Shown here piece after piece: positions 16,301-23,159 of a stretch of DNA of 33,193 nt. The first letter of the stretch is position 1. Each line of letters opens with the position of its first letter. The position numbers and the translations under genes are program-made. The notes under the pieces were generated by a model. That model did not search any database. It was given only the letters and a program-made list of their open reading frames with translations, and was not told the DNA's origin. The stretch comes from Marinoscillum sp. GTDB lineage: Bacteria; Bacteroidota; Bacteroidia; Cytophagales; MED-G16. The stretch lies in assembly GCA_038125345.1 (NCBI GenBank), contig JAYPDR010000005.1:1-33193 (forward strand), written 5' to 3'.

Positions 16301-16322
16301 TTTATTTTAAATTTAAAATAAA
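16301..16322. promoter_or_regulatory. Perfect 22-bp palindrome in divergent intergenic region
   Basis: TTTATTTTAAA|TTTAAAATAAA; it is all A/T, so a chance occurrence is possible. Confidence 0.3.
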
Positions 16323-16360: not shown

Positions 16361-16654
16361 GTGAATAAAATTGTTTCAATATTTCTTTTTTTAGCCTTAT
16401 TTATTCCAAATATTTTTGAGCTAGTAAATCACCATCATGAAATATGTTCAGAAGATGGGATTCACTATCATGAAAATGTTCATGAATGTGATTATTGTTT
16501 GCATACTGGTTTAAATTTTTCTACATATTTAAACTTTCAAAGTAATTATTATTTTGAAATAACTAATGAAAATATAATTAGTTATGAGTTAGTTCATTTC
16601 AATAAAATTTCATATTCAGAAATTTTTGGTAGAGCCCCACCTGTTAAAATTTAA
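16361..16654 (+). CDS. His/Cys-rich exported leader protein ending in RAPP (DUF2946/CruR-like putative translation-arrest peptide)
   Basis: GTG start; hydrophobic N-terminus, HHHEIC...HYHE.VHECDYCLH, and GRAPP three residues before the stop; upstream of a lipoprotein and a TonB receptor. Confidence 0.8.
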   Translation: MNKIVSIFLFLALFIPNIFELVNHHHEICSEDGIHYHENVHECDYCLHTGLNFSTYLNFQSNYYFEITNENIISYELVHFNKISYSEIFGRAPPVKI

Positions 16655-16690
16655 TCTTAAGAGAATTATAAAATCTTAAATCATTCTTTT

Positions 16691-16717
16691 ATTGACCTTA
16701 TTTAATAAGTCAATTTT
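16691..16717 (+). promoter_or_regulatory. Weak hairpin with short U run between leader and lipoprotein (candidate attenuator element)
   Basis: ATTGAC-C-TTAT-TTA-ATAA-GTCAAT followed by TTT. Confidence 0.35.
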
Positions 16718-16748
16718 AAACTATTACTAATTTTTAAATTTTTAAATA

Positions 16749-17354
16749 ATGAAAAAAAATATATTCAAAATAAACATACTATTATACTTTCTGCTATCTC
16801 TAGTTATTTTTACATCATGTGAAGATGATGATATAGTACCAGAAGTGGAGAAAGAGGAGGAAGTAATAACTGATGTTAAGCTTATTTTTACTTCAAGTGC
16901 TGGAGTAAAAGTTGAAGCAAGAGCTCAAGATCCAGATGGAGATGGAGTTGAGGAGTTAAAGGTTATTGATGCTATTAATTTATCATCAGGAGAAACCTAC
17001 ATTCTTACATTAAACATTATGAATAATTTGGAAAGTCCAGGAGAAGATATTGGAGATGAAATAGCTGAGGAAGATGATGAGCATCAAATATTCTTTGCAT
17101 GGACTGAGGGTGTATTTTCTAATCCTTCAGGTGACGGAAATATAGATAATGCATCGGACCCAGTTAATTATAATGATGCTGATGGTAATGGAAACCCGTT
17201 GGGACTTAATACATCATGGACCACAGGTGATCCAACAACCGCGGCTTCTTTTACTGTAAGGTTACAACATCAGCCAGATGTTAAAACTAGTACATCTGGA
17301 GCTAATGATGGTGATACAGATTTTGAGTTACAATTTGTATTAAACATTCAATAA
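16749..17354 (+). CDS. Acidic surface lipoprotein associated with TonB receptor (family often annotated 'type 1 periplasmic binding fold superfamily')
   Basis: Lipobox IFTSC followed by acidic EDDD; EEEVIT.V.L.F, DPDGDG, EDDEHQIFF, Y.D.D.NGNPLGL, LQHQP.K, GDTDF. Confidence 0.8.
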   Translation: MKKNIFKINILLYFLLSLVIFTSCEDDDIVPEVEKEEEVITDVKLIFTSSAGVKVEARAQDPDGDGVEELKVIDAINLSSGETYILTLNIMNNLESPGEDIGDEIAEEDDEHQIFFAWTEGVFSNPSGDGNIDNASDPVNYNDADGNGNPLGLNTSWTTGDPTTAASFTVRLQHQPDVKTSTSGANDGDTDFELQFVLNIQ

Positions 17355-17375
17355 TAAAAAGTGTAAAGACTAAAC

Positions 17376-17415
17376 AATTATCAATGTTCCCTTAATTGGG
17401 GACATTGATAATTTT
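17376..17415 (+). terminator. Long stem-loop after lipoprotein gene (terminator or mRNA 3'-stabilising hairpin)
   Basis: AATTATCAATGTTCCC-TTAATT-GGGGACATTGATAATT: 16-bp stem with one G-U pair and only a short U tail. Confidence 0.65.
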
Positions 17416-17485
17416 ATACTTCATCTTGATTACAATATTAATTGAGTTAACTTATTAGAATAATATTAATATTATTAAATAAAAT

Positions 17486-19948
17486 ATGAATAATAACCAT
17501 GGAGCTATTAATAGTATTAGATGTTATGGTTGTAGTATATCTTATGTAAAAAACTTAAAAGTTAAGTTTTGCTTTACATTATTTATGATTTTTATTTTTC
17601 AAAATTATATTTTTTCACAGGAAAATTGCTCTTTTAATTTATCAGGAAAAGTATTAGATATAGAAACTAATGAATCTCTTCCTGGTGTTTTAATTAAAAC
17701 TAATAACTCTCAAAAATTTTTCACATCAGATGAAAATGGAAATTTTACTCTTAAAAATTTATGTTCCGAGAACATCAAAGTTCTTGTATCAAGTATAGGT
17801 TATACTGACTCAACTTTTACTCTTTCTCCTAATAAAACTAACATATATTTATCTAGAGATAATATTGAGTTAAATTCAGTTTTAATATTTCAAGAAAAAG
17901 AGAAAGATAGGGGGACTAAGACAATATCTCAGCAATTTATTAATTTAGATGAAAGAGGATCAAATAATACATTCTCTCTAGCTAGTATAGCTAGTGAAAT
18001 TGATGGTGTATCTTTTATATCATCTGGTTCGAATGTTGAGTTACCTGTAATTCATGGATTATTTGGAAATAGAATATTGGTTTTAAATAATTACTTAAAA
18101 CACGGCTTTCAGAATTGGGGAAAAGATCACGCTCCTGAAATAAACATAGCTTCATTCTCAAACTTAAGGGTAATTAAAGGTGCATCAGGAGTTAGGTTTG
18201 GTCCTGAGGGTCTTGGAGGGGCTATTATTGTAGAAGCTGATCCAATGAAATTAAGTCAACCTTTTTTTCTAAAATTAAATTCAGGATATGAGACTAATGG
18301 CAAAGGAATAAATTTAGGATTTAATCTGGGCCAAGGTCATAAGAATTTAGGTTATACTTTTGGTTATAACAACATCAAGATAGGAGATAGACATGCACCA
18401 GACTATATGTTAACTAACTCTGGAAAAGAAGAGCAGGCTATAAATTTGGGTATTCATTACCATATTAAAAGCTTTGATATAAAACTTTATTATAACTATG
18501 TTCATTTGAACAACGGATTACTTAGGGCATCAATATTTGAAAGTGGAAATGCTATTTCAAGAGCATTTAGTTCTAATGAACCTTTATTCATCAGACCTTT
18601 TTCTTATTCAATTAATGAACCTAATCAATTAGCAACTCACCATTTACTTAAAGCAAATATAAATTGGTGGTATAGTGAAGATGAAAAAATTTCATTGACT
18701 ATTGGTTCTCAAAAAAATGAGAGAAGAGAATATGATGTCCGAAGAAATTCTCACAAACCAATTGTTAATTTAGAGCTATATTCATATGATTATTTATTAG
18801 AGTGGGATCACTCGATTTCAGATAATTTTAGTGGAATATTTGGGCTTCATTACTTTATTCAGAATAATGATAATATTTATGGTACTGGTACAACTCCTTT
18901 AATACCAAATTATAATTCAAATAGATTGAGCTTTTATTTGGTTGAGGGATACAAGATTTTAAATAATTTATTTGAATTTGGGATGAGATATGATATGGAA
19001 AATTATGGTGTTAGGGGAAGAGAAAAGAATCAAGATGTTTTTCGTGATGAAAATGATTTTTCTAATCTTACATTTTCGCTGGGTTATGAGAGAATAGTTT
19101 CGGATAAATTTTCTTTTGAATCTAATATTGGATCAGCATGGAGAACTCCTAATATGGCAGAACTTTACTCTTTTGGCTCTCACGGGTTTAAGACCTCATT
19201 TGGTTTGCTGAGATATTATTTTTCAGAAGATGGTAGAGTAAAAACTGATAAAGTATTGAAGATGGATGGTAATTATTTCTCTTCTGAAAAATCACTGAAA
19301 CTAGTTAATGAGTTAAATTTTAGTACTGAAAAAAGTAAATTAAAAATTACACTTCACTCAAATTATATTTCAAACTATATTTTTGATAAACCTATTGGGT
19401 TATTTCAAACAATTAGAGGTCCAATGCCATATTTTGTTTTTGATCAGACAGATGTTTTATTTTTAGGCTCCGATATAACATATAGAAGAGATGTATCTAA
19501 AAAGCTTAGATCATCTTTTACATTTGGCTATTTATTTACTAAAAATTTTAATAGAGGTGGTAACCTAATTGATCAACCCCCTATAAGAATAAATAATACT
19601 TTTAATTGGACTACTAATAATTTCTGGAAAATAAATTCTTCTGAAATTTCAATAACACCAAGTTATACCTTTAATCAATTTAGGGCTCCTGAAACAATAA
19701 CACCAGATGAACTAATAAATAATTTTGAAACTTTTAATCCTCAATCTGATATTTTTGATTTTAAAGATGCTCCTGAAGGATATTTTCTTATAGATTTTTT
19801 ATGGAAATTTAAAATAAGAGCATTAGATTGTTCATTAGTTGTGAAAAACACCTTGAATAAAAAATACAGAAATTATTTAAATGAGATGAGATATTTCGCT
19901 GATGAACCAGGTAGAAATTTTCTTATTAATTTTTCTTATAAGTTTTAA
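17486..19948 (+). CDS. TonB-dependent receptor (probable metal uptake type)
   Basis: CarboxypepD_reg-like N-terminal domain; plug motifs PVIHGL.GNRIL, QNWGKDHAPEI, VIKGASGVRFG; WRTPNMAELYS.G.H; C-terminal Y..YLN.MRYFADEPGRNF...YKF. Confidence 0.92.
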   Translation: MNNNHGAINSIRCYGCSISYVKNLKVKFCFTLFMIFIFQNYIFSQENCSFNLSGKVLDIETNESLPGVLIKTNNSQKFFTSDENGNFTLKNLCSENIKVLVSSIGYTDSTFTLSPNKTNIYLSRDNIELNSVLIFQEKEKDRGTKTISQQFINLDERGSNNTFSLASIASEIDGVSFISSGSNVELPVIHGLFGNRILVLNNYLKHGFQNWGKDHAPEINIASFSNLRVIKGASGVRFGPEGLGGAIIVEADPMKLSQPFFLKLNSGYETNGKGINLGFNLGQGHKNLGYTFGYNNIKIGDRHAPDYMLTNSGKEEQAINLGIHYHIKSFDIKLYYNYVHLNNGLLRASIFESGNAISRAFSSNEPLFIRPFSYSINEPNQLATHHLLKANINWWYSEDEKISLTIGSQKNERREYDVRRNSHKPIVNLELYSYDYLLEWDHSISDNFSGIFGLHYFIQNNDNIYGTGTTPLIPNYNSNRLSFYLVEGYKILNNLFEFGMRYDMENYGVRGREKNQDVFRDENDFSNLTFSLGYERIVSDKFSFESNIGSAWRTPNMAELYSFGSHGFKTSFGLLRYYFSEDGRVKTDKVLKMDGNYFSSEKSLKLVNELNFSTEKSKLKITLHSNYISNYIFDKPIGLFQTIRGPMPYFVFDQTDVLFLGSDITYRRDVSKKLRSSFTFGYLFTKNFNRGGNLIDQPPIRINNTFNWTTNNFWKINSSEISITPSYTFNQFRAPETITPDELINNFETFNPQSDIFDFKDAPEGYFLIDFLWKFKIRALDCSLVVKNTLNKKYRNYLNEMRYFADEPGRNFLINFSYKF

Positions 19949-19974: not shown

Positions 19975-22335
19975 ATGTTTAAAAGACATCTTTTATTTTT
20001 TTTATTAGTATCTAATATTACCTTTTCTCAAGTACAGATAAGTGGATATATTCAAGAAAGTAGTTCTGGAGAAAAATTACCATATTCAAATATTTATTTA
20101 GATGCTTTACAATTAGGTGCAAATGCTAATGAAAATGGTTTTTTCTCATTTAAAGGTCAAGTAACTCCTGGTATGGTTTTAAAGGCAAGTTATGTAGGTT
20201 ATCAGACAAAATCTATTGTTTTAACTGAAGATTTAATTAATAGTCAATTAGTTATTGATCTTATACCTTTAACATCCACCTTAAATGAGGTTGTTATCTC
20301 AACTGAATCTAGCAAGTTTTTACAGTCAAGTTCTGAGATAAGTGCACATAGGATATCTGTACAACAACTAAGTTTGATGCCTTCTATTGGAGAAGTTGAT
20401 ATCTTTAGATCACTACAGTTACTCCCTGGGGTGAGCGCTACTCAAGAAAGTAGTTCAGGTTTATATATTAGAGGTGGTCAACCTCAAGAAAATCTTGTCC
20501 TTCTTGATGGTATCAAGGTATATAATGTAGATCATTTTTTTGGCTTCTTTAGTGCGTTTAATGCAAATGCAATTAAGAGTGTAGATCTATATAAAGGAGC
20601 ATTTCCTTCAAAATATGGGGGAAGACTATCGAGTGTTATTGATCTTACGGGTAAGGTTGGAAGTTTTAACGAGATAAAAGGAAACTTAAATGTAAATTTA
20701 CTAAGTGCCTCTGGCTCAGTTGAAATTCCCTTCCTAAAGAAATTTAGTTTTTTTGCTGCTGGAAGAAGATCGTTTACCGATATACTTCAATCATCTTTTT
20801 TTGATAAGATATATAACCAATTTGATCCTGATGATGACATAGAAAATTTAGATCCATGGGTTCCTAAATTTAATTTCTATGATTTTAATGGTAAGCTATC
20901 TTATAAACCTTCTAGTGATGACCTAATAACTTTTAGTTTTTATAGGGGAGAAGATAATTTAAAAGAATCAAGTGATACCAGAAGGTATCAATATCCAAAC
21001 TTTGGAGATATTGATAAGATAGAAATTCTTGGTGATTTAGATAGAATATCTGAGTGGGGAAATAGAGGTTACTCATTTAAGTGGTCACGTCAGTGGAACA
21101 GAAGGTTTTATAATTCCCTAAATATTTCTTATTCAGAGTATTATAATTATCAAGATGATACATATTTTGTAAAGGCTAGAATTCCAGATTTGGATTCTAC
21201 AATATTTAATCTCAATATAATTCTAGATCAAGATAATACTGTTCAAGACTTTACAGCTAGGTATGATGCAGAAATTTTATCTGGGAAAAATAACAAATTC
21301 GAGTTAGGATTTGAATTAACAAAATCAGATGTTGACTATCTTTTTGTCAGAGATGACACTCTTACCATATTAAAAACAAAACAAAATTCAGATTTATATT
21401 CAGGATATCTTTCATATGACTTGAACTCTGTCAAAAATTTAAATTTAAAAATTGGTATTAGGGGCAACAGATACGAGTTGAATGATAAAAATTATTTTTC
21501 TCCGCGATTTCAGGCAGATTATTCCTTCCTTAAAAATCTAAAAATTAAAGTTGGCTACGGTCATCACTTCCAATTTGTTAAACAGATTATTGGTGAGAAT
21601 GTGACATCTAGATCTAGAGATTTCTGGTTACTTTCTGATGATGTAGATGTTAATGTTGGAGAATCTATTCATTATATTGGTGGCTTAGCATACGAAAATA
21701 ATAAATGGTTATTTGATACAGAGTTTTTTTATAAGGAGATATCAAATCTTACTGAGTTCTCACTAAGATTTCAAAGTACTGGGTTAAATAATTTGTTTTT
21801 CAATGGTAATGGGATAGCTAAAGGATTTGAGACTTTAATTCAAAAAAAGATAAATAACTACACAGGATGGATATCATATACATTTACAGATGCTGAGAAT
21901 ACCTATTCATTATTAAATGATGGTAAAAGTTTTCCTGCTCCTCAAATTCAAAGAAATGAAATTAAAATTTTTAATAATTACGAAACTAATGGCTGGAATT
22001 TTTCTGCCTCCTTCATCTATGGATCTGGCCAGACATTTACAGAGCCATCATATAAGTATAATATATCTCTATTAGATGAATCAAGTTTGACGTTCATTGG
22101 AGTAGGACCTAAGAATGGATCTCTTCTTCCAGATTATCATAGACTTGACGTATCGGTTCATCACGTATTTAACATTAATAAATCAAAGGGTGATATTGGT
22201 TTATCTATATTTAATCTATATAACAGACAAAATGTGTGGTACTATGAATACCAATTTGATTATGTTCCTTACGAGAGACAGGTAAAAAAATATTTAGGAA
22301 TTGTACCTAATCTATCATTTAAATTGAGTTTTTAG
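19975..22335 (+). CDS. TonB-dependent receptor
   Basis: MPSIGEVDIFRSLQLLPGV, GLYIRGG, NLVLLDG..VYNVDH.FGFFS.FN, YGGRLSSV, LPDYHRLD, terminal F. Confidence 0.92.
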   Translation: MFKRHLLFFLLVSNITFSQVQISGYIQESSSGEKLPYSNIYLDALQLGANANENGFFSFKGQVTPGMVLKASYVGYQTKSIVLTEDLINSQLVIDLIPLTSTLNEVVISTESSKFLQSSSEISAHRISVQQLSLMPSIGEVDIFRSLQLLPGVSATQESSSGLYIRGGQPQENLVLLDGIKVYNVDHFFGFFSAFNANAIKSVDLYKGAFPSKYGGRLSSVIDLTGKVGSFNEIKGNLNVNLLSASGSVEIPFLKKFSFFAAGRRSFTDILQSSFFDKIYNQFDPDDDIENLDPWVPKFNFYDFNGKLSYKPSSDDLITFSFYRGEDNLKESSDTRRYQYPNFGDIDKIEILGDLDRISEWGNRGYSFKWSRQWNRRFYNSLNISYSEYYNYQDDTYFVKARIPDLDSTIFNLNIILDQDNTVQDFTARYDAEILSGKNNKFELGFELTKSDVDYLFVRDDTLTILKTKQNSDLYSGYLSYDLNSVKNLNLKIGIRGNRYELNDKNYFSPRFQADYSFLKNLKIKVGYGHHFQFVKQIIGENVTSRSRDFWLLSDDVDVNVGESIHYIGGLAYENNKWLFDTEFFYKEISNLTEFSLRFQSTGLNNLFFNGNGIAKGFETLIQKKINNYTGWISYTFTDAENTYSLLNDGKSFPAPQIQRNEIKIFNNYETNGWNFSASFIYGSGQTFTEPSYKYNISLLDESSLTFIGVGPKNGSLLPDYHRLDVSVHHVFNINKSKGDIGLSIFNLYNRQNVWYYEYQFDYVPYERQVKKYLGIVPNLSFKLSF

Positions 22336-22337
22336 AT

Positions 22338-23159
22338 ATGAAAAAAATACTATTATCTCTTATTATAGTTTTATTTTCTTGTGATGTGGAGACACCGATT
22401 GAAGATAATTTTGTGGTTGAAGCTTTTTTATTTCAGGGAGAGAAAGTTGATGATATTAAAATTAAGAAAACTCAACTCTGGAATTCTTTAGATAGCATTG
22501 ATTCTTACATTTCTGATGCTGAAATTAAACTGTTTGGTGCTGGCGAGGAGTATATTCTTAGTTACAATTCTTCTGATGAAAATTATTTTTCAAATGAAAA
22601 TATAGATATTATTTCTGGAGATATATATGGGTTAGAAGTTAAGGTTGGAGATAGAATAGCAACTTCTGAAACAGTAGTACCAACAAAACCTCTAGGATTA
22701 AGTATATCACATAGTAAAATTGTAGTTCCACCATTGGTTTTATCGCCTGAATTACCTAATAAATTAAGAACTTTATTTGATAAGGCAAGAACAAATATTA
22801 CCTGGGATAATTCTTCTGGTGAGTATCACTATCTAACAATTAAGTATGTTGGGATAAAAGATGATCCAATATTTGATGATGAAATTCCAGGTCAAGTAGG
22901 TGAATTCTTCTCAAACTTTTCAATTCAGTCTGAACCTACAACTGAAGGTAGCTATAATGTAATATGTATGAGTCTAAAAAATTATGGAAGGTATATGGTG
23001 ACACTCTACAAAATAAATCAGGATTATGTTAGCTTATTTGAATCGGAAGTCCAAGATGGTACAGAGCTCAATGAGCCACCATCAAATGTAATAAATGCAT
23101 TCGGAATATTCGCTGCATTTGCAAGTGATTCAACTTTTTTTGAAATTGTCAGAGAATAA
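22338..23159 (+). CDS. DUF4249-like lipoprotein partner of TonB receptor
   Basis: Lipobox LFSC; VVEAFL; C-terminal PPSNVINAFGIF; 2 nt after the receptor gene. Confidence 0.8.
   Translation: MKKILLSLIIVLFSCDVETPIEDNFVVEAFLFQGEKVDDIKIKKTQLWNSLDSIDSYISDAEIKLFGAGEEYILSYNSSDENYFSNENIDIISGDIYGLEVKVGDRIATSETVVPTKPLGLSISHSKIVVPPLVLSPELPNKLRTLFDKARTNITWDNSSGEYHYLTIKYVGIKDDPIFDDEIPGQVGEFFSNFSIQSEPTTEGSYNVICMSLKNYGRYMVTLYKINQDYVSLFESEVQDGTELNEPPSNVINAFGIFAAFASDSTFFEIVRE

What the first reader, a model, noticed from the sequence alone, without database searches (positions are those of the whole stretch)
16361..19948. RAPP arrest-peptide-type, His/Cys-rich leader heading a lipoprotein + TonB-receptor cluster: candidate ribosome-stalling metal sensor in Bacteroidota
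Seen: the 97-aa ORF has an export-type hydrophobic N-terminus, a cluster of 7 His and 3 Cys (HHHEIC..HYHE.VHECDYCLH, including CxxC), a ~40-aa linker, and AGA GCC CCA CCT (RAPP, 16631-16642) three codons before the stop. Hairpins follow, then an acidic surface lipoprotein and a TonB receptor. Known: RAPP/RGPP motifs stall ribosomes (ApdA, ApdP; SecM has RAGP), and the DUF2946 leaders CruR (Bordetella) and CutF (Rhodobacter) use signal-CxxC-RAPP-type architecture to control downstream copper genes. Inference: here the nascent leader samples periplasmic metal while stalled and gates uptake-gene expression. The His-rich ligand set suggests Zn/Ni/Co rather than only Cu. I am not aware of a characterised flavobacterial example.
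Basis: partly seen in the sequence, partly recalled or inferred. Interest (0 to 1): 0.85.

Follow-up and report, generated by a model that had tools for sequence, protein, structure and literature searches.

The report
Metal-sensing ribosome-stalling leader peptide gene
A small gene in front of an outer-membrane uptake system most likely encodes a peptide that stalls its own ribosome and uses histidines and cysteines to sense a metal; this kind of switch is known from copper control in other bacteria but has not been tested in this phylum.

Summary
ORF 16361-16654 (97 aa) has a hydrophobic N-terminus, 7 clustered His, 3 Cys including CDYC, a 44-residue linker and RAPP three codons before the stop.

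It is not a chance ORF:
- 55 distinct relatives across Bacteroidota keep the first Cys (55/55).
- 45/55 carry RAPP or RGPP; the rest carry RPPP, KPPP, RSPP or RPPQ.
- The Cys-motif-to-Arg spacing is 43-46 in all 45 RAPP/RGPP members.
- The tail before the stop is 1-7 residues.
- RAPP occurs once among all 3,114 ORFs of 50 aa or more in this genome.

The spacing and "three residues from the end" match what is published for Bordetella CruR (DUF2946). The Pfam model misses the window protein and hits 1 of 40 relatives.

The downstream lipoprotein and TonB receptor form a fixed pair (33/33 loci). The leader is optional (15/28 loci). Eight of the 13 leaderless loci carry a Fur-family regulator instead.

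Best reading: a CruR/CutF-type, metal-responsive arrest-peptide leader. Metal identity, direction of control and the coupling step are not established.

Published surveys already list CutF-like proteins in Bacteroidota and RAPP/RGPP uORFs upstream of TonB receptors, so this is a new member of a known kind.

The parts
16361..16654 (+). Leader ORF, 97 aa, GTG start: a CruR/CutF-like candidate arrest peptide.
   Evidence: Searches show the ORF. A profile built without it recognises it at E 5e-23, and a profile built only from flavobacterial upstream ORFs at E 7e-10. It is single-copy in its own genome.
16370..16417 (+). Hydrophobic N-terminal segment (residues 4-19): export signal or signal anchor.
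   Evidence: One search gives a mean hydropathy of 2.53 over residues 4-18. An equivalent segment is present in the aligned relatives. No signal-peptide predictor was available, and no clear small-residue cleavage site is visible.
16430..16504 (+). His/Cys cluster (residues 24-48): H24-26, C29, H35, H37, H41, C43-x-x-C46, H48. Presumed metal-binding site.
   Evidence: One search gives the positions. C43 is invariant in 55/55 sequences, CxxC is present in 43/55, and one His column is at least 90% conserved.
16487..16498 (+). CxxC motif (CDYC).
   Evidence: It lies 44 residues before Arg91. The spacing is 43-46 in 45/45 RAPP/RGPP relatives.
16631..16642 (+). RAPP (AGA GCC CCA CCT). The expected stall has Pro93 (16637-16639) in the P site and Pro94 (16640-16642) in the A site.
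   Evidence: P93 and P94 are invariant and R91 is at least 90% conserved. Codons vary synonymously between loci. It is the only RAPP in the genome's ORFs. The stall register is inferred from ApdA/ApdP and CruR (PMC10951233; PMC12992588).
16652..16654 (+). Stop codon of the leader, three sense codons after RAPP.
   Evidence: The tail is 1-7 residues (mode 3) in 55 relatives.
16692..16717 (+). Small hairpin (TTGACCTTAT / ATAAGTCAA) followed by TTTT in the leader-lipoprotein spacer. Candidate attenuator or terminator-like element.
   Evidence: A hairpin at the equivalent place appears in the MFE fold of 12/12 spacers from the same genus, with different stem sequences. It is not significant against shuffles in the window.
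16749..17354 (+). Acidic lipoprotein of 201 aa, the obligate partner of the receptor. It has a conserved EEDDEHQ motif and a second invariant His.
   Evidence: It has 1,298 homologues and sits adjacent to the receptor in 33/33 loci. The AF2 model (pLDDT 87.7) is a beta-sandwich with no specific match.
17376..17413 (+). Strong 16-bp hairpin between the lipoprotein and receptor genes.
   Evidence: terminator-like scan: 3 found in the region against 0.4 expected.
17486..19948 (+). TonB-dependent receptor. The first ATG is listed; by comparison with homologues the true start is probably some 20-25 codons further on.
   Evidence: Only weak similarity to copper receptors was found: TIGR01778 at E 1.2e-6, far under its cut-off, and the OprC plug at E 5.5e-4.
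19975..23159 (+). Second TonB-dependent receptor (19975-22335) and a DUF4249 lipoprotein (22338-23159), same strand. They may or may not belong to the same transcription unit.
   Evidence: The second receptor follows the first in L001, L002, L003, L017 and L023.

Best explanation
The 97-aa ORF is a cis-acting regulatory leader of the CruR/CutF type.

Proposed steps (all inferred, none measured here):
1. The nascent chain is targeted for export by its hydrophobic N-terminus.
2. [quoted passage not shown]
3. At that point the CxxC lies 47-50 residues from the peptidyl-transferase centre and the His run 67-69 residues from it. That is just outside the exit tunnel, at or beyond the translocon.
4. 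Metal binding to the His/Cys site changes how long the arrest lasts.
5. The ribosome's position then decides whether the downstream lipoprotein and TonB-receptor genes are expressed. The likely route is the small hairpin plus U-run 38 nt after the stop, or Rho access as in CruR.

The downstream genes look like an uptake module, so the net logic should be 'metal present = genes off'.

Shown here: the conserved anatomy, the fixed ruler, the uniqueness of the motif, the linkage to the receptor module, and its alternation with Fur-family regulators.
For: 1. Family conservation with low overall identity (mean column identity 20-27%). C43, P93 and P94 are invariant; R91, C46 (in the first 26 sequences; CxxC in 43/55 overall) and one His column are at least 90% conserved.
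2. Among 55 distinct sequences, RGPP occurs in 27, RAPP in 18, RPPP in 6, KPPP in 2, RSPP in 1 and RPPQ in 1. The spacing is 43-46 in 45/45 RAPP/RGPP members and the tail is 1-7 residues.
3. In the exhaustive protein search, 11/11 full-length hits end in R[AGP]PP plus 3-6 residues.
4. 12 of 18 other species of the same genus carry it, all with R[AG]PP.
5. Arg, Ala/Gly and Pro codons vary synonymously between loci, so selection acts on the peptide.
6. RAPP occurs once, and RGPP, RPPP and RAGP never, in 3,114 ORFs (595,804 residues) of the own genome.
7. [quoted passage not shown]
8. RAPP and RGPP give robust, EF-P-refractory arrest, and CruR arrests in vitro with the two Pro codons in the P and A sites (PMC12992588, abstract and passages).
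9. Context: 26 of 29 family hits in a 401-genome phylum sample are followed by a TonB receptor homologue on the same strand, with spacers of 39-418 nt.
10. The receptor-lipoprotein pair is constant (33/33 loci), while the leader is present in 15 of 28 loci with enough upstream DNA. A Fur-family gene (PF01475, 51.3 bits) is present in 8 of the 13 leaderless loci and in 0 of the 15 leader-bearing loci of equal size.
11. No PF01475 match was found in the own assembly, which is 84.8% complete.
12. One family member (L033) passes Pfam DUF2946 at 24.7 bits against a cut-off of 23.7, aligned over the CxxC-to-RGPP part. The nearest Pfam-bearing cluster in the protein atlas is DUF2946 (score 0.92; a lead only).
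Against: - There is no experimental or ribosome-level evidence. Arrest on Bacteroidota ribosomes is untested.
- The window protein gets no DUF2946 hit even at E 10, and only 1 of 40 relatives does. With L033 left out, the family profile finds it only at E 4.7e-4. Common descent with CruR is therefore weakly supported, and convergence is possible.
- The spacer is not more structured than shuffles in the window. Across 29 loci only 5 had z below -2 (that run was cut by the time limit).
- A ribosome stalled at RAPP would not physically reach the hairpin at 16692.
- Bacteroidia ribosomes do not use Shine-Dalgarno pairing (abstract of PMC9976891, seen in the listing). The CutF mechanism of unmasking a ribosome-binding site therefore cannot be copied directly.
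- The second Cys is replaced by F, Y, Q, L or D in 12 of 55 members, so a strict CxxC sensor is not universal.
- One locus (L054) has both a leader and a Fur-family gene.
- A strong hairpin at 17376-17413 separates the lipoprotein gene from the receptor gene, so control of the receptor by the leader is less direct here.
Confidence: 0.68

Rival explanations
1. The ORF encodes a stable, exported or membrane-anchored small metal-binding protein, a metallochaperone or partner of the lipoprotein/receptor. Its C-terminal RxPP would be a structural or interaction motif rather than an arrest signal.
For: It has an export-type N-terminus and a His/Cys cluster. It is genetically linked to an outer-membrane uptake pair. 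The spacer is not significantly structured.
Against: - The 44-residue linker is poorly conserved in sequence but fixed in length. That fits a ruler to the ribosome better than a folded domain.
- The motif is always 1-7 residues from the stop.
- RAPP and RGPP are strongly excluded from proteomes because they impede translation (PMC12992588), and the motif occurs nowhere else in this genome.
- The pair functions without the ORF in 13 of 28 loci.
- CutF was not detectable as a stable protein (PMC9973294).
Confidence: 0.14
2. It is an arrest-peptide leader that senses something other than a metal, such as the redox or disulfide state of the envelope through its cysteines, or the capacity of the export machinery.
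For: RAPP/RGPP uORFs also occur upstream of DsbA/thioredoxin genes and Sec genes (PMC12992588). The first Cys is the only invariant residue of the sensing region.
Against: - The downstream genes are a TonB receptor and an acidic His/Glu-motif lipoprotein, not Sec, YidC or Dsb components.
- The His-rich cluster is conserved.
- Fur-family metal regulators replace the leader at orthologous loci.
- The second Cys is often lost (12/55), which argues against a disulfide switch.
Confidence: 0.12
3. The ORF is a chance open frame in AT-rich intergenic DNA and the motif is coincidental.
For: It starts with GTG. No Pfam or NCBIfam family matches. The word-based search found only the ORF itself.
Against: Profile and exhaustive searches find relatives with the same architecture in 47 of 401 sampled genomes of the phylum and in 12 of 18 congeners. 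Leave-one-out E is 5e-23. The peptide motif is kept while its codons vary synonymously.
Confidence: 0.01

Closest known systems
CruR (Bp2923) of Bordetella pertussis, DUF2946 family (PMC9426467; abstract and passages read)
   Same: - Small ORF at the head of an operon with a TonB-dependent transporter.
- Export-type N-terminus.
[quoted passage not shown]
- A spacer of roughly 100-160 nt before the next gene.
- An uptake-type target, for which 'metal off' logic is expected.
   Different: - The window protein is not recognised by PF11162.
- It is 97 aa against 145 aa.
- It has an additional His-rich cluster.
- The next gene is a lipoprotein, not the transporter itself.
- There is no PepSY_TM gene.
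- The locus has 14-30% GC, so a C-rich Rho-utilisation site as in cruR is unlikely.
- The metal and the sensing compartment are unknown.
CutF of Rhodobacter capsulatus and 'CutF-like proteins' (PMC9973294, passages read; preprint 10.1101/2025.02.05.636593, abstract read)
   Same: It meets their operational definition: under 150 aa, PP within the last 15 residues, an N-terminal signal, and a same-strand downstream gene within 1,000 nt. Their list counts 19% of 5,334 proteins from Bacteroidota, with TonB-like neighbours frequent. They note His-containing variants that may sense metals other than copper.
   Different: - CutF has CxxxC and a PPP motif that needs EF-P.
- It controls a detoxifying multicopper oxidase, switching it on when copper is present.
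- It works by melting a stem-loop over a Shine-Dalgarno site.
- Here the motif is RAPP, the targets look like uptake genes, and the phylum does not use Shine-Dalgarno pairing.
- I could not check whether this subfamily is in their list because supplements are closed.
[quoted passage not shown]
   Same: A C-terminal RAPP/RGPP in a small secretory protein encoded upstream of a TonB-dependent receptor. The paper reports this class as found universally in Gram-negative bacteria.
   Different: That survey is annotation-based. As far as the passages I read show, it does not describe this family's His/Cys site, its fixed spacing, the lipoprotein partner or the alternation with Fur-family regulators.
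ApdA, ApdP and SecM arrest peptides (PMC10951233, PMC7897499)
   Same: [quoted passage not shown]
   Different: Those peptides monitor Sec/YidC and sit upstream of sec genes. They have no metal-ligand cluster. Release there is by the pulling force of the translocon.

Membership tests
Pfam DUF2946 (PF11162) / CruR family | Match to the PF11162 profile at or above the gathering score (23.7 bits). | tested here: not met
   No hit for the window protein even at E 10. No PF11162 match anywhere in the own genome. 1 of 40 relatives (L033) scores 24.7 bits.
Pfam DUF2946 (PF11162) / CruR family | Conserved CxxC motif. | tested here: met
   CDYC at residues 43-46. CxxC is present in 43 of 55 relatives and the first Cys in 55 of 55.
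Pfam DUF2946 (PF11162) / CruR family | C-terminal RAPP about three residues before the end. | tested here: met
   RAPP at residues 91-94 of 97. RAPP or RGPP is present in 45 of 55 relatives, with a tail mode of 3.
Pfam DUF2946 (PF11162) / CruR family | Spacing of about 45 residues (within 1-2) between CxxC and RAPP. | tested here: met
   44 in the window and 43-46 in 45/45 RAPP/RGPP relatives. The published value is from PMC9426467.
Pfam DUF2946 (PF11162) / CruR family | Heads an operon with metal-homeostasis genes, often a TonB-dependent transporter. | tested here: inconclusive
   The gene order leader, lipoprotein, receptor on one strand is shown. Co-transcription is not shown. The only RNA contig found lies inside the lipoprotein gene.
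Pfam DUF2946 (PF11162) / CruR family | Translation arrest at RAPP and metal-dependent control of the downstream genes. | not testable with these tools
   This needs toeprinting, ribosome profiling or reporter assays.
CutF-like proteins (operational definition of PMC9973294) | [quoted passage not shown] | tested here: met
   97 aa; PP at residues 93-94; hydrophobic N-terminus judged by hydropathy only, with no predictor available; 94-nt spacer to the lipoprotein gene.
Sec/YidC-monitoring arrest peptides (SecM, ApdA, ApdP, MifM, VemP) | Encoded directly upstream of a gene for the protein-localisation machinery. | tested here: not met
   The downstream genes are a lipoprotein and TonB-dependent receptors.
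NCBIfam 'HYC_CC_PP family' (name recalled from memory, accession not known to me) | Match to the NCBIfam profile. | tested here: inconclusive
   No such family appeared among NCBIfam hits up to E 10 for the window protein or up to E 1 for 16 relatives. I cannot confirm that the recalled family is in the library.

The most novel reading that the evidence does not exclude
This is a Bacteroidota-specific arrest-peptide sensor that is not simply a diverged CruR. Three features would set it apart.
- It reads a metal other than copper (zinc is the leading candidate) through a His-rich site plus a single essential Cys.
- It serves as a cis-encoded substitute for a Fur/Zur-type repressor at the same receptor-lipoprotein module. 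The streamlined genome here has the leader and no detectable Fur-family gene.
- It couples arrest to expression by a route that needs neither a Shine-Dalgarno mask nor a C-rich Rho site. One possibility is a small hairpin plus U-run whose 5' arm is covered only when the ribosome moves on to the stop codon.
Probability: 0.25. Interest if true: 0.7.

Novelty: new member of a known kind. Interest (0 to 1): 0.45.

Why it matters
If the reading is right, the nascent-peptide metal switch known from two Proteobacteria also works in Bacteroidota. Translation initiation and termination signals differ in this phylum, so the coupling step cannot be the same as in CruR or CutF.

The comparative data provide a ready set of tests:
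- a 43-46-residue ruler;
- an invariant Cys;
- a His column;
- R(A/G)PP.

They also provide a natural experiment. The same receptor-lipoprotein module is found with the cis leader in some genomes and with a trans-acting Fur-family gene in others.

The data also flag an abundant marine outer-membrane pair (1,298 lipoprotein homologues, mostly from ocean metagenomes) as a probable trace-metal uptake system with an unidentified substrate.

Tried and rejected
Searches and checks that led nowhere:
- Word-based homologue searches of the leader and of L033's leader found only the query itself. I had hoped L033 would give a bridge to proteobacterial DUF2946 proteins for a profile-profile comparison. 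That comparison could not be made because I had no DUF2946 alignment.
- Pfam and NCBIfam gave nothing for the leader.
- A family name I recalled ('HYC_CC_PP') did not appear.
- The lipoprotein has no family and no solved relative by sequence.
- By fold, its confident model gave only generic beta-sandwich matches. Foldseek's best E was 3.7e-3 and VIA's best Z was 7.0 for RhoGDI. The copper proteins PmoD and CrdA scored Z 5.0-5.1, within the unspecific range. No function can be read from this.
- The receptor's only solved match is the OprC plug at E 5.5e-4, too weak to name a substrate.

RNA structure:
- The window's spacer is not significant.
- RNAalifold on a MAFFT alignment of 12 spacers gave no consensus, because the hairpin arms are not in register. 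The hairpin claim therefore rests on per-sequence folds and inspection.
- I did not build a covariance model.

Expression:
- One metatranscriptome run held a single 250-nt contig inside the lipoprotein gene, 16885-17134.
- It says nothing about the leader or about co-transcription.
- The absence of cover elsewhere is not evidence.

Other points:
- Sigma-70-type promoter matches were at chance level (11 found, 11.9 expected).
- The literature searches found no experimental study of such a leader in Bacteroidota.

Full report
**What is there.**
The window carries a GTG-start ORF at 16361-16654 on the + strand, 97 aa long.
- Its most hydrophobic stretch is residues 4-18.
- It has His at 24-26, 35, 37, 41, 48 and 79, and Cys at 29, 43 and 46. 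CDYC is at nt 16487-16498.
- It ends G-R-A-P-P-V-K-I-stop. RAPP is encoded by AGA GCC CCA CCT at 16631-16642.
- After a 94-nt spacer of 14% GC come three genes. The first is a 201-aa lipoprotein (lipobox VIFTS|C; mature part 40 D+E against 7 K+R, pI 4.05). The second is a TonB-dependent receptor with CarboxypepD_reg and Plug domains. The third is a second receptor with a DUF4249 lipoprotein.
- Upstream lies a divergent TIM-barrel gene.

**Is it real?**
Standard libraries do not know the protein, and a word-based search found only the query itself. Other searches did find relatives.
- An exhaustive HMMER search of 1.84 billion representatives found 13 proteins at E up to 0.001, the query's own record among them. 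All 11 full-length hits have the same plan and end in R[AGP]PP plus 3-6 residues.
- I used the lipoprotein to fetch 34 genomic loci and found equivalent small ORFs in 15 of them.
- A profile of 26 such sequences hit 47 of 401 sampled Bacteroidota genomes, in 33 of 180 genera and 23 of 28 genomes in one family.
- The same profile hit 12 of 18 other species of the window's own genus. Five of the six genus genomes without a hit are only 54-79% complete.
- A profile built without the window sequence finds it at E 5e-23. A profile built only from the flavobacterial upstream ORFs finds it at E 7e-10, with Z set to the 3,114 ORFs of the genome.

**What is conserved.**
Over 55 distinct sequences, mean column identity is only 20-27%. 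Even so, the Cys equivalent to C43 and the two prolines never change, and the Arg and one His column are at least 90% conserved.
- The motif is RGPP in 27, RAPP in 18, RPPP in 6, KPPP in 2, RSPP in 1 and RPPQ in 1. The RPPQ case is a partial, doubtful hit.
- The number of residues between the four-residue Cys motif and the Arg is 43-46 in all 45 RAPP/RGPP members (28 at 44, 11 at 45). It is 44-52 in the other motif classes, apart from the doubtful RPPQ hit at 66.
- The tail after the motif is 1-7 residues, most often 3.
- The codons for Arg, Ala/Gly and Pro differ between loci (AGA, AGG, CGA, CGT, CGG; GCC, GCT, GCA; GGT, GGA, GGG; all four CCN). Selection is therefore on the peptide.
- In the window's own 1.67-Mb, 30% GC assembly, RAPP occurs once among all 3,114 six-frame ORFs of 50 aa or more, in this ORF. 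RGPP, RPPP and RAGP do not occur at all.

A linker of free sequence but fixed length, ending in a translation-impeding tetrapeptide next to the stop, is the signature of a regulatory arrest peptide rather than of a folded protein.

**Comparison with what is known.**
- *CruR.* Roy et al. (PMC9426467; abstract and passages read) showed that Bordetella CruR heads an operon with a TonB-dependent transporter. CruR is a DUF2946 protein with a signal peptide, CxxC, 45 intervening residues and RAPP three residues before its end. Copper sensed through CxxC relieves arrest at RAPP and allows Rho-dependent termination. [quoted passage not shown]
- *CutF.* Öztürk et al. (PMC9973294; preprint abstract) showed the related CutF. 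[quoted passage not shown] They listed 5,334 CutF-like proteins, 19% of them from Bacteroidota, with TonB-like proteins among the commonest neighbours and some His-only variants linked to nickel and cobalt genes.
- *RAPP/RGPP surveys.* Fujiwara et al. (PMC12992588) showed that RAPP and RGPP give robust, EF-P-refractory arrest and are excluded from proteomes. They recur near the C-terminus of small secretory proteins upstream of, among others, TonB-dependent receptors 'universally in Gram-negative bacteria'. CruR arrests in vitro with its two Pro codons in the P and A sites.
- *Mechanism of arrest.* Morici et al. (PMC10951233) gave the structural basis of the arrest.

The window's ORF matches the CruR anatomy feature for feature, with 44 against 45 residues of spacing and the same three-residue tail.

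By sequence the link is thin. PF11162 does not detect the window protein or anything else in its genome. It detects 1 of 40 relatives, L033, at 24.7 bits against a cut-off of 23.7. L033 is itself peripheral to the family, with a leave-one-out E of 4.7e-4. A protein-language-model search named DUF2946 as the nearest Pfam-bearing cluster, which is a lead only. I therefore file the ORF as working like CruR/CutF and meeting the operational CutF-like definition. It is not a demonstrated member of Pfam DUF2946.

**Context and an argument for a regulatory role.**
The lipoprotein and the first receptor are adjacent in 33 of 33 loci, in either order. In the phylum sample, 26 of 29 leader hits are followed by a receptor homologue on the same strand after 39-418 nt. 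Two are followed by small lipoproteins and one lies at a contig end.

The leader itself is dispensable. Of 28 loci with at least 500 nt of upstream DNA, 15 have it and 13 do not.
- In 8 of those 13 a Fur-family gene lies in the locus, four times divergent and directly upstream (PF01475, 51.3 bits; best NCBIfam matches are split between Fur and Zur, none near its cut-off).
- None of the 15 leader-bearing loci of the same size has a Fur-family gene.
- The pattern is not absolute: one locus of the phylum sample, L054, has both.
- These loci are related to each other, so the counts are not independent.
- The window's own assembly (84.8% complete) has no PF01475 match.

Two different metal-linked control devices at the same module is what one expects if the leader is a regulator. 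It also shows that the module responds to a metal. It does not say which one:
- CxxC and the faint OprC/NosA-type similarity of the receptor plug point to copper.
- The Fur/Zur-type neighbours, the His-rich leader and receptor N-termini, a His/Glu-rich insertion in one lipoprotein (L012) and a folE gene upstream in L009 lean towards zinc or another divalent metal.

My rough odds are copper 40%, zinc 35%, other 25%.

**How it may work.**
Shown: the anatomy above. [quoted passage not shown]

Inferred for this locus: at arrest the nascent chain is 93 residues long. C46 and C43 lie 47 and 50 residues from the peptidyl-transferase centre, His24-26 lie 67-69 residues away, and the end of the hydrophobic segment lies 74 residues away. 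With 30-40 residues in the tunnel, the CxxC sits just outside the ribosome. The His run could already be across the translocon. Cytoplasmic sensing (as proposed for CruR) and periplasmic sensing (as for CutF) are both geometrically possible. The tight ruler says that the position matters.

For coupling, the spacer contains a small hairpin at 16692-16713 followed by TTTT. A hairpin at the equivalent place is in the minimum-energy fold of all 12 spacers from the genus. The stems differ (UGAC/GUCA types, GAUUUUUUU/AAAAAAAUC, CGGCCU/AGGGUCG), which suggests that pairing is kept.

In half of those spacers the 5' arm starts 9-15 nt after the stop codon. A ribosome that has moved on to the stop would cover it, while a ribosome held at R(A/G)PP would not. 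This allows an attenuation-type model in which the length of the arrest decides whether the hairpin forms.

That model is a hypothesis. The window's spacer is no more stable than shuffled sequence. Flavobacterial spacers of 39-60 nt are not consistently structured; 5 of 29 had z below -2, and that run was cut by the time limit. I could not test covariation formally. Rho-dependent termination as in CruR remains possible.

Because the targets look like uptake genes, I expect 'metal present = off'. The sign is not established.

**The lipoprotein.**
A confident model (pLDDT 87.7) is a beta-sandwich without a specific structural relative. Its invariant residues include E104, E108, E111, H112, Q113 and H174. 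This fits a metal or metal-chelate binding site, but that is inference.

**Verdict.**
The periplasmic-sensing and Zn/Ni/Co inferences remain open. The organism is closer to MAGs labelled Flammeovirgaceae or Marinoscillum than to flavobacteria.

The kind of element is published, including bioinformatic counts in Bacteroidota and upstream of TonB receptors. My literature searches found no experimental study in this phylum, and I could not see the supplementary lists. New here are the phylum-wide ruler statistics, the uniqueness of the motif in the genome, the fixed receptor-lipoprotein partner and the alternation with Fur-family regulators. I rate it as a new member of a known kind, of moderate interest.

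Noticed in passing
window 16301-16322: A perfect 22-nt palindrome, TTTATTTTAAA-TTTAAAATAAA, lies 39 nt upstream of the leader's GTG, between the divergent TIM-barrel gene and the leader. It is the only match in the window, with 0.05 expected. It could be an operator or promoter element. In a 14-20% GC spacer it may also be chance.
   Followed up: partly
window 17376-17413: A strong 16-bp hairpin, AATTATCAATGTTCCC / GGGGACATTGATAATT, lies between the lipoprotein stop and the receptor start. It could be a terminator or a processing or stability element that uncouples lipoprotein and receptor levels.
   Followed up: no
window 17486-17560: The first ATG of the receptor ORF adds about 24 residues (MNNNHGAINSIRCYGCSISYVKNL...) that homologues lack; they start at the signal peptide. 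The true start is probably further downstream, which would make the spacer after the lipoprotein gene about 200 nt.
   Followed up: no
own genome G000 (whole assembly): No Fur-family (PF01475) match was found in the 1.67-Mb assembly, which is 84.8% complete. The same search rang in all 14 control genomes, over the cut-off in 12. If this is true of the complete genome, the streamlined organism lacks the usual trans-acting metal repressors.
   Followed up: partly
L009:40-765 (+), upstream of the receptor-lipoprotein pair: A GTP cyclohydrolase I FolE gene (272 bits) lies directly upstream of the pair in a Polaribacter MAG. Some public records name the lipoprotein itself 'GTP cyclohydrolase', probably a carried-over mis-annotation.
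   Followed up: no
L005, L018, L019, L022, L026, L027, L030, upstream of the leader: In flavobacterial loci the leader is preceded on the same strand by a DUF6146 lipoprotein and a DUF6787 membrane protein. In L019 the homologues lie on the opposite strand, beyond the lipoprotein gene. These are conserved neighbours of unknown function that may belong to the same system.
   Followed up: partly
L011:2602-3858 and L020, L032: The lipoprotein is duplicated in tandem, as a fused two-domain form of 418 aa in L011 or as two genes in L020 and L032. L012's copy carries a Glu/His-rich insertion, EEEEEEEHEEEEHGHSHG.
   Followed up: no
L054:1980-2366 (+): This is the one locus where a Fur-family gene and a leader co-occur, arranged divergently. 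It is a useful exception for testing whether the two controls are redundant or layered.
   Followed up: no
L001, L002, L017: OsmC-like gene ending 1-4 nt before the leader start: In three close relatives an OsmC-family gene (PF02566) sits immediately upstream of the leader on the same strand. It is absent from the window, where the leader follows a divergent gene.
   Followed up: no
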